IMG/VR virus record: IMGVR_UViG_3300021185_003145
Location: 27,667 to 91,666 of that record
Strand: one strand, 5' to 3'
DNA length: 64,000 nt
From: a virus
This document shows positions 34,043 through 46,455 of this stretch, in pieces. The notes below the pieces were generated by a model. That model was not told the origin of the DNA. It searched no databases and saw only the letters and a list, made by a program, of their open reading frames with translations. Position 1 is the first letter of the stretch. Every line of letters begins with the position of its first letter. Both the position numbers and the translations under genes were made by a program.

Positions 34043-34501
34043 TTAAGCGTCTTCTGTAAAGTCGTCATCATCTGTGTTAGCAACGTCATCGTCACCTGCT
34101 TCTTCAAGTTTTACTTTACCTGCTGATGCAGCGGCAAAGTCCCACTTTAATGATAAACCGTCTAATGCATTAGAACCTGTTGCACTTGGTTGTGCGGCTG
34201 TTATCTTACGAGCAGTAATTTTACTTACGCCATAAGTTTCACTGTCGTTACCTGCAACTGAAATTGACATTTCACCTGCCGCTAGTGCAGATGCTAATTT
34301 ACCAGTTGTTAAAGTACAAGTGTGTGTTGTATCAGCAGTACCTGTTTCTGCACATACAAATTTCTTTGAACCTTTTTGCTTAATAATTGTACCTTCAACA
34401 ACAGATGAACCGTTATGAAAGTTTACTTTAATTTCGTTTTTACCAGCAGTTGCACCTGCAGCCGCAGTTGTAAAAAGTCTTTTATTTAGTGGACGTCCCA
34501 T
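34043..34501 (-). CDS. hypothetical virion protein (MGRPLNKR...) downstream of capsid gene
   Basis: 152 aa, AAGGAG RBS, own late motif at 34578-34583. Confidence 0.75.
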   Translation of the reverse strand: MGRPLNKRLFTTAAAGATAGKNEIKVNFHNGSSVVEGTIIKQKGSKKFVCAETGTADTTHTCTLTTGKLASALAAGEMSISVAGNDSETYGVSKITARKITAAQPSATGSNALDGLSLKWDFAAASAGKVKLEEAGDDDVANTDDDDFTEDA

Positions 34502-34588
34502 TTGTTTCTCCTTAGTTACGTTCTATGTAATACGGGGTTGGTTTCCCCATAAGTAAATGCTTGTGCATTTACAACTATATTTAGTCAC

Positions 34589-42912: not shown

Positions 42913-43776
42913 ATGGATGAAAACGCGAATCCTTTAAAACAGGATCAAAATCCCTTAACCGGATATTTTCGTAAACCTGAAGTATATGTGTCTCTACCCA
43001 GCAAAGGAAACTACTATGCACCCGGTGCCATAGATTTTCCACAAAACGGAGAGATAGGTGTATTTCCAATGACTGCAAAAGACGAGTTAGTTTTTAAAAC
43101 TCCAGATGCACTACTTAACGGAAGCAGTACCGTTGAAGTTATTAAGAGTTGTGTACCTGCTATTAAAGACCCGTGGTCCATACCAAGTTTAGATATGGAT
43201 GTTTTATTAATTGCTATTCGTATTGCAACATACGGTAATCAAATGGATATTACCGCTACTTGTCCTACTTGTCAAGCAAAAAATGAGTTTGGCATTGACT
43301 TAGCAAACTTAATTGACCAAAGCGGAAAATGGGTGTTCAATGATACTTTGCAAGTAGATGATTTAACAATTAAATTTAAACCACTATCATACAAAGACTT
43401 AAACACTGAAAATCTTAGACAGTTTGAAGAAGCAAAAATTATGAGAATTGTCAATGATGAAACAACAACTGATGAACAAAAACAACAGTTGTTTAACGAT
43501 ACATTCTTAAAACTTACTGTACACACAGTTGACTTAATTGCTAAAACAATTTTTAAAATTACTACTGCTGATGGTACTGAAGTAACAAACATTAAACACA
43601 TTAACGAGTTTGTTCACGGAGTTGATAGAAAGATGTTTGATACTATTCAAAAACATCTTGACAATGAAAGAGTGAATAACAGTTTTGCAGAGTTTGAATT
43701 AACTTGTGAAAATGAAGGTTGTGATACAAAGTATAACACACCTATAGTATTTGACAATTCAAATTTTTTCGCATAA
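42913..43776 (+). CDS. baseplate hub / tail assembly chaperone (gp26-like)
   Basis: LPSKG..Y, PMTAKDE, LIAIRIATYG, CPTC, final FFA*. Confidence 0.8.
   Translation: MDENANPLKQDQNPLTGYFRKPEVYVSLPSKGNYYAPGAIDFPQNGEIGVFPMTAKDELVFKTPDALLNGSSTVEVIKSCVPAIKDPWSIPSLDMDVLLIAIRIATYGNQMDITATCPTCQAKNEFGIDLANLIDQSGKWVFNDTLQVDDLTIKFKPLSYKDLNTENLRQFEEAKIMRIVNDETTTDEQKQQLFNDTFLKLTVHTVDLIAKTIFKITTADGTEVTNIKHINEFVHGVDRKMFDTIQKHLDNERVNNSFAEFELTCENEGCDTKYNTPIVFDNSNFFA
43761..43770 (+). other. candidate -1 programmed ribosomal frameshift site (A AAT TTT / T TTT TTC)
   Basis: X XXY YYZ heptamers at the end of 42913-43776; the -1 frame is open from here to the 44000 stop. Confidence 0.7.
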
Positions 43777-43811: not shown

Positions 43812-44000
43812 ATGCTAAAGCAGTTCGACACAGAAGCCGACACTATTAGAGAAAATATATTTAAGATAGTTTGGTATATGCGTGGTGGCATTAATCTGGA
43901 TCAGGCATTCATGCTCAATCAGAAAGAGCAGAAGATTATCTACGATATCGTTTCAGAAAACATCAAGAATACAGAGAAGAGCGGAATGGCATTACTTTAG
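43812..44000 (+). CDS. gp51-like small protein; probable frameshift extension of upstream chaperone
   Basis: WYMRGGI motif; -1 frame relative to upstream gene, no clear RBS. Confidence 0.72.
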   Translation: MLKQFDTEADTIRENIFKIVWYMRGGINLDQAFMLNQKEQKIIYDIVSENIKNTEKSGMALL

Positions 44001-44094
44001 TATCACACTATAAGATGAACTAAAGTTCATCAGCAATTTCGTTTTTCAAACTCATTGCTTTTTTCTTAATTAATAATATACAACTAAATGATTA

Positions 44095-44480
44095 TATAAC
44101 TGAAGTCTTCATGCAGATCGTTTCAGTCAGACGGAACCTGTTTAAGGGTTCCATCTAATCTTGACTTCATGCGAGTATTATCCAGCCGAGACTTGGAAGT
44201 AGGTATTGTTTATACACAAGTTTGATGGGCTCTGACCTTTCCCAACCTACGTCGACATACATATTGCTATGTTACCCCACGCTTCGTTCCTGTTGCCATG
44301 GGTTTTTACAAACTATATTGTGTTTTTTGATTGACAGTAATTCAATCTATACTAACCGGTGAGCCCAATTTGTTTGATGGCTTCCACACTCTGGTGTGTT
44401 GATCTGTATGTTGCGTGTGTTCCTATACGGAAACTTTTTCCACAGCGGAATTCTAAACTGGCCCGCTAACCTTAAGTACT
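44095..44480 (-). ncRNA. large structured non-coding RNA candidate (unassigned family)
   Basis: ORF-free, GC-richer than flanks, at least 8 hairpins including two GCAA tetraloops and G-U pairs favouring the minus strand, several long-range complementarities. Confidence 0.65.
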
Positions 44481-44484
44481 GTAA

Positions 44485-44925
44485 CTATAATTGTTGATTG
44501 TTCTTGAACTGTTGAATGCCTTCGTGGAGAATTTTGCTACTGCCTACGCGAACGTTAATAATGCCATTATAGTAATCATCTGATAAAAGAACTTCCCTGT
44601 CAAATTGTTCCTTTGCTTCAAGATAACTCATTAAGCCTCTACTTGAACAAAGATATAATATTTCACGTGTGAAGTTTGTACTGCCTAGCTCTGCTACATC
44701 TGCCTGTAAGTGATCTGAAGATCCATAATATTCTCTCCAATCACTTTCTACTGTGGTTCGTCTTTTGTTTTTCTTACCTTTAAGAGGTGGTTTTGTTTTT
44801 TTAAATTTTGCTAATTTTTTGCCAATGTATTTTTTGTTGCTTTTTAAGTTGGTTATTAAGTAAACAAATCCTTCAACGTCACTTGGTAACTGCTCGATAG
44901 GATCACCTTTATAAGTCCAACTCAT
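44485..44925 (-). CDS. GIY-YIG family endonuclease (short, single-domain)
   Basis: GFVYLITN...KKYIGKK, conserved R, YYGSS, F.REIL, E..EQF, YYN. Confidence 0.85.
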   Translation of the reverse strand: MSWTYKGDPIEQLPSDVEGFVYLITNLKSNKKYIGKKLAKFKKTKPPLKGKKNKRRTTVESDWREYYGSSDHLQADVAELGSTNFTREILYLCSSRGLMSYLEAKEQFDREVLLSDDYYNGIINVRVGSSKILHEGIQQFKNNQQL

Positions 44926-45140
44926 TTCTTTTGTTTTCTTAACTGTTGTAATTGTAATGCCTTCTTGTGGTAATAGTCAACCTTTTTCTCTGCGTAAAAT
45001 GGTAAAACGTTAGGAAGTATACCATGTATAATACTAACGATACCTGTGAGTATAAGATCGAGTCCTGCCACAACAGCAAATTTGCCATGTTGAAAGTAAC
45101 CTTTGCGGGCTTCTTTAAGATGAGCTTTAATTTGAAACAT
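44922..45140 (-). CDS. small protein, DUF6356-like (HL....Y..H...A.......IH...P)
   Basis: 72 aa with one hydrophobic helix; overlaps both neighbours. Confidence 0.6.
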   Translation of the reverse strand: MFQIKAHLKEARKGYFQHGKFAVVAGLDLILTGIVSIIHGILPNVLPFYAEKKVDYYHKKALQLQQLRKQKK

Positions 45141-46455
45141 ACTTCTGCCTTAATTTTCCTATATCAGGTTTTCCTAATACATTAAGCTCTATGGGTATTA
45201 TTAGTTTATCATAACTGATACCCTGGCCTGTTAATTTCTGGATCAAACTGTCAGTATTCACTGAATCGTCATTCACACAGACTACAACATGTGTCTGAGA
45301 AGTACCAAACAACACAATTTTTGTTGCTTGACTTTCGTCAACAAGTTGTTGCGGATTAACTAATTCTCCGTTAATCCTAATAAAATCTTTATTACGTTTT
45401 TCAAAATAATAATTATCGCCAACCGTGTTTACACGGTCACCTGTATTTAATGTATCCACATTAGAATCGTTAATTTGCTTTGCTAAATGCTTACTTTTAA
45501 CAATTACTAATTCACCGTGTCTGTCAATTTTGTATTCAGCAGTATCATCACAGTTTACACCCATATCCTGCTGATTATAATCAGCAATGTTTTGTTTGTT
45601 TACAAACTTATGCATAATAGGAGGCAAACATTCTGTTAGTCCGTATATTACAACAACATCATCAACACCTTGCTCAATTAGTTTTTCACAAAATGTTTTT
45701 GGAATTGTTGAACCTCCAGTTAGTACATAGCGAACATGACTTAAATCTAACTTGCTTAAATTTTCGTATTGTTCATAGTTTGATGGAAACAATAACATTG
45801 TATCAGGTTTGTGTTTATTAAATGTTTCAACATCATAAGTGTCCCACAAATGTGGCAAAACGACCTTTTTACTAGAAAATAATGCAGGAAAGAAATACAC
45901 AGTACTAACACCTAAGTGTACAATATTATGATAAAACCAACTTGTTTTTGCATCTTTCCAGTAGTGCTTGATACTATCGTTTGAAGCACAAGTAATACTT
46001 TCGTGTGTATGTGTTACTGTTTTAGAATGCCCTGTTGTACCACTAGTAAACGATTCTAGTATAATATCGTTATGGTTAACACGATAGAGTTTTGATGGTT
46101 CAATATTGCCATCTAACTCAATGTGAGGAACATTAATAGTTTTTACAGTTACAGGTTGTATTCCACGAGTTAGAACAATTTTAATATTGCTCCTTGCACA
46201 GTACTCGTCATCAATATAATGGTCACCACTAATAACAGGAACAAGTCCGTAGTCAATAGAAGCAAACACTACTGCTAGATGATGTATGTCTTCTTGCAGA
46301 CACAATGAAATACGATCGCCTCTTGTAAGTTTTTGACTTTCAAAGAAACGCTGATATCCTCCAGCAAGACAAGTTAACTCATCTTTACTGTAGATACGTT
46401 CGTTAGTGCAATCATGTATTTCAATATCGTTTTGTAATCTCGATATTGAAATCAT
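45127..46455 (-). CDS. adenylate-forming enzyme (ANL / acyl-CoA synthetase-like)
   Basis: FTSGTTGHSK (A3 P-loop), TGGS, YGLTE (A5), TGD (A7), R.KD.I..NG (A8), GK (A10). Confidence 0.85.
   Translation of the reverse strand: MISISRLQNDIEIHDCTNERIYSKDELTCLAGGYQRFFESQKLTRGDRISLCLQEDIHHLAVVFASIDYGLVPVISGDHYIDDEYCARSNIKIVLTRGIQPVTVKTINVPHIELDGNIEPSKLYRVNHNDIILESFTSGTTGHSKTVTHTHESITCASNDSIKHYWKDAKTSWFYHNIVHLGVSTVYFFPALFSSKKVVLPHLWDTYDVETFNKHKPDTMLLFPSNYEQYENLSKLDLSHVRYVLTGGSTIPKTFCEKLIEQGVDDVVVIYGLTECLPPIMHKFVNKQNIADYNQQDMGVNCDDTAEYKIDRHGELVIVKSKHLAKQINDSNVDTLNTGDRVNTVGDNYYFEKRNKDFIRINGELVNPQQLVDESQATKIVLFGTSQTHVVVCVNDDSVNTDSLIQKLTGQGISYDKLIIPIELNVLGKPDIGKLRQKYVSN

What the first reader, a model, noticed from the sequence alone, without database searches (positions are those of the whole stretch)
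44095..44925. GIY-YIG nuclease followed immediately by a ~390 nt structured RNA: candidate nuclease-RNA system
Seen: the only long ORF-free gap in the window starts right at the GIY-YIG stop. Read on the minus (gene) strand it folds into many helices: AGCGG/CCGCU (44444-44467), UUCC-GUAUA-GGAA (44420-44432), CACAC-CAGA-GUGUG (44385-44398), GAUUGA/UCAAUC (44329-44347), CCAUG-GCAA-CAGG (44289-44301), ACAUA-GCAA-UAUGU (44259-44272), GUAGGU/ACCUAC (44199-44250) and a 12-bp UUAGAUGGAACC/GGUUCCGUCUGA stem with two G-U pairs (44127-44158). Long-range complementarities UGGGCUC/GAGCCCA (44361-44367 with 44226-44232), UGGAAG/CUUCCA and CAUACAGAUC/GAUCUGCAUG (44401-44410 with 44110-44119) suggest a compact, possibly pseudoknotted multi-domain fold. 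Direct repeats CCAUCAAAC and GCAUGAAG each occur twice. GNRA loops and most wobble pairs favour a minus-strand RNA, although one pair favours plus. Known: nuclease genes with adjacent large RNAs include IscB/omegaRNA, TnpB/reRNA and intron-encoded GIY-YIG enzymes. This protein seems to be only the catalytic domain with a Lys-rich insert and no C-terminal DNA-binding domain. Inference: an RNP in which the RNA supplies scaffold or specificity, or a novel ribozyme/large phage ncRNA. A replication origin is an alternative.
Basis: partly seen in the sequence, partly recalled or inferred. Interest (0 to 1): 0.85.

Follow-up and report, generated by a model that had tools for sequence, protein, structure and literature searches.

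The report
Twin-box RNA behind phage nuclease gene
The gene-free stretch behind a small DNA-cutting enzyme gene of this uncultured marine T4-like phage encodes a real, knotted RNA of about 380 bases. It is in no RNA catalogue, it carries one 7-letter word twice whose two copies always mutate together, and its job is unproven.

Summary
Window 44107-44484 (minus strand) is a real structured RNA directly after a 146-aa GIY-YIG gene.

- **Structure:** On 79 related sequences, 91.7% of proposed pairs form, against 33-43% when partners are slid. Fifty of 74 pairs show compensatory changes. One crossing of helices and one loop-to-5' pairing are supported by covariation.
- **Catalogue:** Rfam 15 has no match.
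- **Twin boxes:** Two boxes (GCAUGAA at 44166-44172 and 44108-44114) hold the same 6-mer in 89 of 89 relatives, despite at least 12 independent changes. No complementary partner exists in the RNA. No protein residue tracks the word.
- **Linkage:** A DNA-only search found the RNA directly behind a GIY-YIG gene in all but two contigs with enough upstream sequence. The two exceptions (L116, L125) have none. Cultured relatives (Melnitz, cyanophages) have the nuclease without the RNA.
- **Expression:** Metatranscriptome contigs join gene and RNA.
- **Protein:** It is modelled as a symmetric dimer.
- **Guide hypothesis:** Nothing shows RNA guidance.

My best guess (about 0.3) is a two-fold nuclease-RNA particle whose twin words read a partner in trans.

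This scan has already noted the same "twin-box RNA" on other phage DNA many times. I found no publication of it.

The parts
44485..44925 (-). GIY-YIG-only nuclease gene (146 aa). It has a conserved basic beta-hairpin (residues about 36-60) and an invariant C-terminal strand, YYNGIINVRVG.
   Evidence: Pfam SegE_GIY-YIG E 4e-36. AlphaFold model pLDDT 87, best PDB fold match the I-TevI catalytic domain 1MK0 (prob 0.95, E 0.12). 78% mean column identity over 24 homologues. Homodimer model score 0.84 against best control 0.00.
44107..44484 (-). Twin-box RNA, whole element. Below, position p = 44495 minus the window coordinate.
   Evidence: nhmmer and blastn conservation right after the stop codon. 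Covariation statistics. No Rfam match. RNA-library contig spans 44105-44802.
44325..44484 (-). 5' domain, the less conserved part; it is replaced in 'half' and class 2/3 variants. Helices: p28-32:47-51, p52-54:78-80, p61-65:72-76, p86-92:140-146, p97-101:106-110, p148-152:162-166. Pseudoknot: p13-18 with hairpin loop p156-161.
   Evidence: Per-helix counts (83-99% paired, each helix with 2-5 doubly changed pairs). 16 loci keep only the 3' half.
44107..44321 (-). 3' core domain. It holds helix p182-186:271-275 (plus p174-176:277-279) crossing helix p245-250:291-296, the hairpins p193-197:215-219 and p251-254:266-269, and the hairpin p340-348:357-365.
   Evidence: The covariance model R1 of this domain finds the window copy at 160.7 bits and class-2 relatives at E 1e-4 to 0.25.
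44230..44240 (-). Near-invariant hairpin loop AAAGGUCAGAG. Its GGUCAGA is complementary to UCUGACU at 44125-44131, a candidate third pseudoknot.
   Evidence: 7 positions paired in 76-79 of 79 sequences, but they do not vary, so there is no covariation proof.
44166..44172 (-). Box 1 (word GCAUGAA, preceded by CUC).
44108..44114 (-). Box 2 (the same word GCAUGAA, preceded by UCU). It lies at the 3' edge of the conserved element.
   Evidence: 112 of 116 loci have identical 7-mers, and the exceptions seen differ only at the 7th base. The 6-mer is identical in 89 of 89, with at least 12 changes on a tree built without the boxes. One RNA contig ends at 44105.
44255..44258 (-). AUGU (p237-240), complementary to the first four bases of both boxes. 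It is followed by the invariant palindrome GUCGAC.
   Evidence: 74-79 of 79 paired with either box, and nearly all changes at word positions 1-3 are wobble-compatible transitions. There is no true covariation, and L116 breaks the rule.

Best explanation
This is a new family of large, pseudoknotted phage RNA, the 'twin-box RNA'. It is made as the 3' extension of the messenger for a small, homodimeric SegE-type GIY-YIG nuclease, and the two work as one module.

Shown:
- The fold.
- The strand.
- The linkage to the nuclease gene.
- Contigs from RNA libraries that join gene and RNA.
- The rule that the two boxes are always identical.

Inferred:
- Neither the RNA itself nor the protein sequence changes with the word. 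So both boxes must be read by the same sequence-variable partner outside the RNA, most simply a nucleic acid.
- The two-fold symmetric nuclease dimer sits on the RNA core with one active site near each box.
- The two identical words pair with two copies of a short complementary sequence. One example is the two strands of an inverted repeat in competitor-phage or host DNA.
- The RNA would thereby supply the positioning that the missing DNA-binding domain gives in other GIY-YIG homing enzymes.

This last step is a hypothesis, not a finding.
For: - Real RNA: 91.7% pairs against 33-43% slid, 50 of 74 pairs compensatory. G-U excess on the gene strand. Lengths spread evenly over the three classes mod 3, so it is not coding.
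- Linkage: in a protein-blind search, all but two elements with enough upstream sequence have the GIY-YIG gene directly upstream on the same strand, mostly with -3 to +30 nt between the end of the protein match and the element.
- More distant homologues carry class-2 and class-3 versions, again with twin words.
- Contigs from RNA libraries of four studies bridge the stop codon.
- Twin identity: 89 of 89, with at least 12 independent double changes. A quite different 10-nt word is again duplicated in L116.
- No cis partner. No protein residue follows the word.
- The protein lacks a DNA-binding domain.
- It has an invariant basic hairpin and an invariant strand that forms the modelled dimer interface. 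Score 0.84, best control 0.00; the mark was reached by 20 of 30 true homodimers and 1 of 23 single chains; 100% contact agreement; pLDDT 92.
Against: - The nuclease family does not need the RNA. Melnitz (73% identical) and cyanophage, Sinorhizobium and other homologues are followed by ordinary genes, and their whole genomes give no model hit.
- Two contigs have the RNA with no GIY-YIG gene nearby.
- A 6-7 nt word is very short for a guide.
- The word and its complement are not depleted in the phage's own 91.7-kb contig: 7 copies against a median of 9.5 for permuted words.
- Inverted repeats of known words are not enriched in about 2.1 Mb of related phage DNA: 175 against 259-357 for shuffled words.
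- No binding, cleavage or processing was observed. The RNA data are assembled contigs that cannot exclude DNA carry-over.
Confidence: 0.3

Rival explanations
1. Independent RNA plus a hitch-hiking homing endonuclease. The RNA is an autonomous large 'ornate' phage RNA with its own, unknown job (structural, catalytic or multimeric, as for GOLLD and ROOL). The SegE-type GIY-YIG gene is a selfish free-standing homing endonuclease. It lodges beside this conserved RNA gene and uses it as the conserved landmark or target for its spread. This is how T4 SegB sits among the tRNA genes and F-CphI sits beside the psbA intron (my own knowledge of those cases).
For: - Each partner occurs alone: nuclease without RNA, RNA without nuclease.
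- The Pfam family is named for the T4 homing enzyme SegE.
- The nuclease-RNA pair lies next to different neighbours in different contigs.
- The flanking gene content differs even between close relatives.
- As described for GOLLD, the 3' region is conserved and the 5' region is variable (PMC12286853).
Against: - Homing genes are normally sporadic. Here the gene is present in all but two elements with enough upstream sequence, always on the same strand and abutting the RNA.
- The protein is under strong constraint, about 70% identical in phages whose baseplate hub proteins are only 31-46% identical.
- This reading leaves the twin-box rule unexplained.
Confidence: 0.3
2. Self-acting RNA, either a ribozyme or a switch. 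The two boxes are two alternative substrates that dock in turn into one site of the knotted core, partly through the conserved AUGU next to the pseudoknot. That would serve two-step cleavage or ligation, or a two-state switch. A variant: the two boxes contact each other in a parallel, like-with-like base-paired stretch, which would by itself force identity.
For: - Unpaired nucleotides in the core are near-invariant.
- The core has a double pseudoknot.
- AUGU is complementary to the first 4 nt of both boxes in 74-79 of 79 sequences, with nearly all changes wobble-compatible.
- Box 2 lies exactly at the 3' edge of conservation, and one RNA contig ends there.
- No other partner for the boxes was found.
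- Natural ornate RNAs do use unusual contacts such as an A-A helix (PMC12286853).
Against: - No joint, skipped form or shared end was seen in RNA contigs (contigs are poor at this).
- Wobble tolerance at AUGU would allow the boxes to differ, yet they never do.
- L116 has a word that cannot pair with its GUGU.
- No similarity to any ribozyme model in Rfam.
- The helix order does not fit a group I core: a hairpin sits between the P7-like and P3-like strands.
Confidence: 0.2
3. Cis-regulatory or antitoxin-like 3' untranslated region. The RNA controls the nuclease that is translated from the same messenger. It might hold the dimer on the twin boxes to keep it off the phage's own DNA, much as type III antitoxin RNAs hold their nucleases. 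Or it might set messenger stability.
For: - It lies on the same transcript by position and by bridging contigs.
- Two identical sites match a modelled two-fold dimer.
- These phages have no obvious way to protect their own DNA from a non-specific GIY-YIG enzyme. That last point is inference.
Against: - 375-600 nt of knotted, highly conserved RNA is far more than known UTR elements need.
- No protein residue changes with the word.
- Homologous nucleases in cultured phages lack any such RNA.
- The RNA exists without the gene in two contigs.
Confidence: 0.1
4. Replication origin with a structured primer RNA, like ColE1 RNA II or the T4 origin transcripts. In this reading the twin boxes let the RNA 3' end re-align on the template.
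For: - The locus lies between convergent gene blocks, near the recombination genes (gp46-like) and the baseplate genes.
- In T4 the uvsY origin lies in the comparable neighbourhood (my own knowledge).
- Direct repeats are common at origins.
Against: - There is no inflection of cumulative GC skew at 44 kb. The turn is near 50 kb, where gene orientation changes.
- No AT-rich unwinding element is evident (GC 0.43 in the core).
- G-U-specific covariation over 15 helices points to a folded RNA product and not to a DNA site.
- The pair sits beside different neighbours in different phages.
Confidence: 0.07

Closest known systems
GOLLD (RF01998) and ROOL (RF03087), large 'ornate' RNAs of phages and prophages (Kretsch et al. 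2025, PMC12286853)
   Same: - Phage-borne.
- Several hundred nucleotides, many helices and pseudoknots, function unknown.
- A conserved 3' region with a variable 5' region, as stated for GOLLD.
   Different: - No sequence or model match.
- Smaller, at about 380-600 nt.
- Not seen beside tRNA genes in the loci examined, but fixed behind a nuclease gene.
- Carries the twin-box identity rule, which I do not know to be described for those RNAs.
- Multimer formation was not tested.
HEARO / omega-RNA with IscB, and reRNA with TnpB (OMEGA systems; own knowledge, and review PMC13565253 listed)
   Same: - A large structured RNA encoded next to, and co-oriented with, a small nuclease gene of a mobile-element type.
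- The nuclease lacks its own target-recognition domain.
   Different: - A different nuclease fold: GIY-YIG, not RuvC/HNH.
- No transposon ends.
- No 16-20 nt guide at an end of the scaffold that matches flanking DNA.
- The only variable 'word' is 6-10 nt, lies inside the conserved element and occurs twice.
- RNA guidance is not shown.
Free-standing Seg-type GIY-YIG homing endonucleases of T4-like phages (SegA-G), e.g. SegB in the tRNA gene cluster (own knowledge)
   Same: - The same catalytic-domain family (Pfam SegE_GIY-YIG).
- Free-standing, in a T4-like phage, next to a conserved RNA gene.
   Different: - Only 146 aa, with no C-terminal DNA-binding domain.
- Modelled as a dimer.
- Highly conserved and almost never absent where the RNA is present.
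Phage group I introns carrying GIY-YIG genes (I-TevI type)
   Same: - A GIY-YIG gene physically joined to a pseudoknotted RNA of comparable size.
- Two crossing long-range helices that recall P3/P7.
   Different: - No flanking exons. The upstream gene overlaps the nuclease start, and the downstream neighbour is a convergent gene.
- The helix order differs from P3-P9.
- No hit to the Rfam intron models even at E 10.
- No spliced form in RNA contigs.

Membership tests
GIY-YIG nuclease superfamily, SegE-type catalytic domain (PF19835) | Profile match over the whole domain above the curated cut-off | tested here: met
   124.3 bits against a cut-off of 25; residues 3-123 on profile positions 1-123 of 123.
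GIY-YIG nuclease superfamily, SegE-type catalytic domain (PF19835) | GIY-YIG fold and conserved catalytic motifs (GIY..YIG tyrosines, Arg, Glu, Asn) | tested here: met
   The model's best PDB match is the I-TevI catalytic domain (1MK0, prob 0.95, TM 0.65 on the target). F20-V21-Y22, Y33-x-G35, R55/R56, E88 and N120 are invariant in 24 homologues. Their catalytic role is inferred by position only.
Seg-type homing endonuclease (function) | A C-terminal DNA-binding domain, and sporadic presence with cleavage of the allele that lacks the gene | tested here: not met
   There is no domain beyond residue ~123 apart from a strand and helix that form the modelled dimer interface. The gene is present in all but two RNA-bearing contigs with enough upstream sequence. 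Cleavage is not testable here.
Any Rfam 15 RNA family (incl. group I intron, GOLLD, ROOL, HEARO, RNase P, tmRNA, self-cleaving ribozymes) | Covariance-model match at or near the gathering score | tested here: not met
   No hit in 44001-44484 at the gathering threshold or at E up to 10.
Group I intron | Flanking exons of a host gene; P1-P10 pairing with an internal guide; P3-P4-P6-P7-P3'-P8-P7' order | tested here: not met
   The element lies between a stop codon and a convergent gene. A hairpin lies between the P7-like 5' strand and the P3-like 3' strand. No spliced contig was seen.
RNA-guided nuclease system (OMEGA/CRISPR-like) | A variable guide segment that matches target or flanking DNA, and dependence of the nuclease on the RNA | tested here: inconclusive
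   The only variable, rule-bound segment is the 6-10 nt twin word. It has no matching site near the locus, is not avoided in the phage's own genome and shows no enriched inverted repeats. Homologous nucleases exist without the RNA. Biochemical dependence is not testable here.
Twin-box RNA (family defined in this scan, unpublished) | A conserved 3' core (GACGUAGGU..GGGAAAGGUCAGAGCCC..ACCUAC, GGUUCCGUCUGAC hairpin) and two identical boxes 49-68 nt apart, directly 3' of a small GIY-YIG gene | tested here: met
   The window copy scores 160.7 bits on model R1, though that model was built with this copy included.

The most novel reading that the evidence does not exclude
The twin-box RNA and the dimeric GIY-YIG enzyme form a two-fold symmetric ribonucleoprotein. 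In it, two identical short RNA words, not a protein domain, choose the DNA (or RNA) that is cut. That would be a new kind of RNA-directed nuclease, unrelated to CRISPR and OMEGA systems.

An equally unusual alternative that the data allow: the two boxes pair with each other like-with-like in a parallel strand contact. That is a type of conserved RNA interaction that standard covariation methods cannot see.
Probability: 0.15. Interest if true: 0.95.

Novelty: categorically new. Interest (0 to 1): 0.8.

Why it matters
Large, intricately folded RNAs are rare, and each class found so far has revealed new biology. Examples are ribozymes, riboswitches, guide-RNA scaffolds and RNA cages.

This one is common in uncultured marine and freshwater T4-like phages and is present in ocean RNA libraries. 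It obeys a rule I know from no other RNA: two short boxes that may take almost any sequence but must be the same.

That rule makes the function directly testable. One can mutate one box, then restore identity by mutating the other, and see what returns: RNA folding, nuclease binding or cutting specificity.

If the words steer the neighbouring nuclease, this would be a new, very compact programmable nuclease. If they do not, the RNA still adds a new member, with a new interaction logic, to the handful of 'ornate' RNAs.

Tried and rejected
- **Rfam**, at gathering and at E up to 10: nothing in the gap. The only hits are chance snoRNA-like matches outside it.
- **blastn of the gap against 50,697 phage records:** no match.
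- **Protein-coding reading:**
  - Element lengths fall evenly in the three classes mod 3.
  - The median stop-free run is 46 codons on the sense strand.
  - Antisense ORFs of 80-135 codons occur in some copies but are not kept in frame.
- **A cis 'anti-box':**
  - Exact reverse complements show no consistent site.
  - The best 7-nt window pairs at about 5 of 7.
  - The own-word versus other-word test gives a difference of at most 0.67 pairs.
- **A third direct copy marking a cassette end:** none at a consistent position. One extra copy at window 43908-43914 fits chance.
- **Avoidance of the word in the phage's own genome:** not seen.
- **Inverted repeats of words as targets in related phage DNA:** fewer than for shuffled words.
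- **Protein residues tracking the word:** none for the larger word groups.
- **Empty-site comparison:** every close relative found (L199-L202) also carries the pair, so the insertion boundaries could not be set.
- **Spliced or skipped RNA forms:** none in the contigs of four RNA runs. Contigs cannot show ends, strand or rare forms, so absence proves nothing.
- **Sigma-70 promoter and intrinsic terminator scans:** at chance level.
- **T4 endonuclease II (DenA) identity for the protein:** no sequence hit to any PDB chain. The fold search puts I-TevI first.
- **AGGCA / GGTAAGTA motifs:** seen upstream in relatives, not enriched in this phage.
- **Model R1 on class-3 elements:** mostly below threshold. 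Their kinship therefore rests on shared motifs and twin boxes seen by eye.
Full report
**What is there.** The window is part of a 91.7-kb contig of an uncultured marine T4-like phage.
- Around the finding lie a T4-type baseplate hub gene (42913-43776, +), a 62-aa ORF (43812-44000, +) and the gene-free gap.
- Then follow, on the minus strand, a 146-aa ORF (44485-44925), a 72-aa DUF6356 ORF, a 442-aa AMP-binding enzyme and a gp46/SbcC-like ATPase.
- The 146-aa protein matches Pfam SegE_GIY-YIG over its whole profile (E 4e-36) and has nothing else.
- The nearest cultured carriers of this protein are the Methylophilales phages Melnitz at 73% identity (phage described in PMC9004378).

**The RNA is real.**
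- Single-sequence folding is only mildly better than shuffles on the gene strand (z -1.99) and not on the other strand (z -0.08).
- Comparative evidence is decisive. More than 590 viral contigs encode a relative of the protein. In 41 of the best 80, a conserved element of about 375 nt starts at or within about 30 nt of the stop codon.
- A scan with the 16-nt core word GGAAAGGUCAGAGCCC alone fetched 119 further stretches.
- On 79 copies less than 95% identical to each other (alignment A2), a 74-pair structure gives 91.7% standard pairs. Controls with partners slid by 1-3 columns give 33-43%.
- Fifty pairs carry changes on both sides, and 587 cells are doubly changed against 195 +/- 11 in shuffles, with 0 of 500 shuffles reaching that value.
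- G-U pairs outnumber A-C 599 to 128, so the folded strand is the gene strand.
- Element lengths are spread evenly over the three residues mod 3, so it is not coding.
- Rfam 15 has no match, even at E 10.

**Anatomy** (p = 44495 minus the window coordinate).
- 5' domain:
  - Helices: hairpins p28-32:47-51 and p61-65:72-76 (closed by p52-54:78-80), a long-range helix p86-92:140-146 enclosing p97-101:106-110, and hairpin p148-152:162-166.
  - Pseudoknot: the loop of p148-152:162-166 pairs with p13-18.
- 3' core:
  - Crossing helices: p182-186:271-275 (extended by p174-176:277-279) crosses p245-250:291-296. This is a second pseudoknot.
  - Inside lie p193-197:215-219, a stretch of widely varying length, and p251-254:266-269.
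  - The near-invariant loop of p251-254:266-269, AAAGGUCAGAG, is complementary over 7 nt to UCUGACU just after the last hairpin, p340-348:357-365. These positions do not vary, so that contact is only a candidate.
- Some relatives keep only the 3' core.
- A covariance model of the core (R1) detects a second sequence class behind more distant GIY-YIG genes (E 1e-4 to 0.25). A third class of about 600 nt shares the core motifs by eye.

- Six of its local helices are backed by compensatory changes.
- One hairpin lies in the stretch that varies widely in length and could not be scored. One GNRA hairpin is weakly kept.
- Its three long-range pairings and the repeat CCAUCAAAC do not survive comparison.

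**The twin boxes.** CUC-GCAUGAA (44166-44172) and UCU-GCAUGAA (44108-44114) are the window's copies of two boxes 49-68 nt apart.
- In 112 of 116 loci the two 7-mers are identical. The exceptions seen differ only at the seventh base.
- The 6-mer is identical in 89 of 89 aligned copies. A tree built without the box columns needs at least 12 changes of the word, and each is a simultaneous change in both boxes.
- Eleven words occur in class 1. Others (AGAUAAU, GGAUGAA, UCGUGAU ...) occur in classes 2 and 3, and one contig has a quite different 10-nt word, again duplicated.
- I looked for what could enforce this:
  - There is no complementary segment in the RNA or within 1.5-2 kb.
  - There is no third copy at a fixed place.
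  - No protein residue follows the word.
  - The word is not avoided in the phage's own genome.
  - Inverted repeats of words are not enriched in 2.1 Mb of related DNA.
- The conserved AUGU at p237-240 can pair with the first four bases of either box. Nearly all variation there is wobble-compatible, but that does not explain why the boxes never differ, and L116 breaks it.
- Identity without a visible complement leaves three kinds of explanation:
  - A trans partner that reads both boxes.
  - A process that passes a strand from one box to the other.
  - A like-with-like contact between the boxes.

**Relation to the nuclease.**
- In the protein-blind set, all but two elements with enough upstream sequence have the GIY-YIG gene directly upstream on the same strand. 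The exceptions are L116 and L125, which are not T4-like in their neighbours.
- In nine loci an ORF of about 95 aa is wedged between gene and RNA.
- The pair keeps to the neighbourhood of the baseplate hub gene in phages whose hub proteins are only 31-46% identical, while the nuclease stays about 70% identical. Other loci have different neighbours.
- Conversely the nuclease family is much wider than the RNA.
  - Melnitz, P-SSM2, S-RSM4 and phiN3 have the gene followed by ordinary genes.
  - Their complete genomes give no significant hit to model R1.
- So each part can exist alone, yet in this phage group they are almost inseparable.

**Expression.**
- Twenty-two listed RNA-library runs from the ocean hold part of the stretch.
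- Assembled contigs from four of them, each from a different study, run from the nuclease ORF into the RNA.
  - One spans 44105-44802 and stops at the end of box 2. Other contigs stop within the RNA.
  - No skipped or rearranged form was seen.
- These are contigs. They show presence and continuity, not ends, strand, level or freedom from DNA.

**The protein.**
- The AlphaFold model (pLDDT 87) has the GIY-YIG sheet, a long basic beta-hairpin (KKLAKFKKTKPPLKGKKNKRR, largely invariant) and a C-terminal strand and helix.
- The best PDB fold match is the I-TevI catalytic domain.
- Two copies are modelled as a symmetric dimer through the invariant YYNGIINVRVG strand and flanking helices.
  - Score 0.84, best of 3 controls 0.00.
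  - The mark was reached by 20 of 30 proteins solved as homodimers and 1 of 23 solved as single chains.
  - The runs agree in 100% of contacts, and pLDDT is 92.
  - My own alignment was used, so those counts hold only roughly.
- This supports, but does not show, a two-fold enzyme. That would explain how a GIY-YIG domain without a DNA-binding domain could make double-strand cuts, and it echoes the two identical boxes.

**Reading.**
- I rank first, at about 0.3, a two-part module in which the dimer sits on the RNA and the twin words read a nucleic acid in trans.
- About equal is the reading that the RNA is autonomous and the nuclease gene is a homing element fixed beside it.
- Then follow a self-acting ribozyme or switch (0.2), an antitoxin-like or regulatory 3' region (0.1) and an origin RNA (0.07).
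  - Cumulative GC skew turns near 50 kb, not at 44 kb.
- None of these is proven. The identity rule offers a clean experimental handle.

**Comparison with the known.**
- The element is not a member of any Rfam family.
- It resembles GOLLD and ROOL in being a large ornate phage RNA with a conserved 3' part (PMC12286853).
- It resembles HEARO/omega-RNA in sitting beside a small nuclease gene.
- It shares neither the sequence, fold nor logic of these, and it fails the tests for a group I intron.

**Earlier notes of this scan.** They describe the same family on other genomes under the name 'twin-box RNA'. I re-derived the fold, the rule and the linkage here independently.
- I added these tests:
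  - The word-avoidance test.
  - The inverted-repeat test.
  - The protein-covariation test.
  - The whole-genome checks of cultured relatives.
  - The hub-gene synteny.
  - The dimer model.
- I added these candidate contacts:
  - The AUGU complementarity to both boxes.
  - The GGUCAGA/UCUGACU pairing.
- I found no publication describing the RNA.

Noticed in passing
window 34499-34570 (-): Rfam freshwater-2 RNA motif (RF02980), 59.7 bits against a gathering score of 49.9. It is the only Rfam hit in the window.
   Followed up: no
window 44997-46453: The AMP-binding enzyme gene and most of the DUF6356 ORF are missing from the close relatives L200 and L201. In those, the GIY-YIG gene lies next to the 60-aa ORF / gp46 side. 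This is an indel directly beside the nuclease-RNA pair.
   Followed up: partly
L095, L097, L101, L104, L120, L138, L139, L157, L175 (between GIY-YIG gene and RNA): An extra ORF of about 90-100 aa (motif W-P-x-G-K-H-x-G...Y-L-x-W) is inserted between the nuclease gene and the RNA in nine contigs. Its family was not determined.
   Followed up: no
L116:6690-7029 and L125:1398-1638: Two contigs carry the RNA with no GIY-YIG gene nearby; the neighbours are a 165-aa ORF of no family and an HNH-like fragment. L116 has a 10-nt twin word, AUCAUCAAGU, unlike all the others.
   Followed up: partly
upstream of the GIY-YIG start in many loci (e.g. L007, L010, L176): Many relatives carry a recurrent UAGGCA..GGUAAGUA motif 8-10 nt before the start codon, and AGGCA repeats before the RNA start. 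Both are absent from the window's own copy and are not enriched genome-wide in it.
   Followed up: partly
window 44251-44256 (-): GUCGAC is an invariant 6-nt palindrome in an apparently unpaired stretch next to the core pseudoknot. It could serve RNA-RNA dimerisation.
   Followed up: no
window 43908-43914: A third copy of the word (GCAUGAA on the minus strand) lies about 200 nt downstream of box 2, inside the convergent 62-aa ORF. Its presence is compatible with chance, given 7 copies in the contig.
   Followed up: partly
phage records S-RSM4 NC_013085.1 and Melnitz MZ577097.1: In cultured relatives the homologous small GIY-YIG gene sits just after nrdA-nrdB. That is the position of denA (endonuclease II) in T4 by my own knowledge. 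Public records often label it 'NAD synthetase', which looks like a propagated misnomer.
   Followed up: partly
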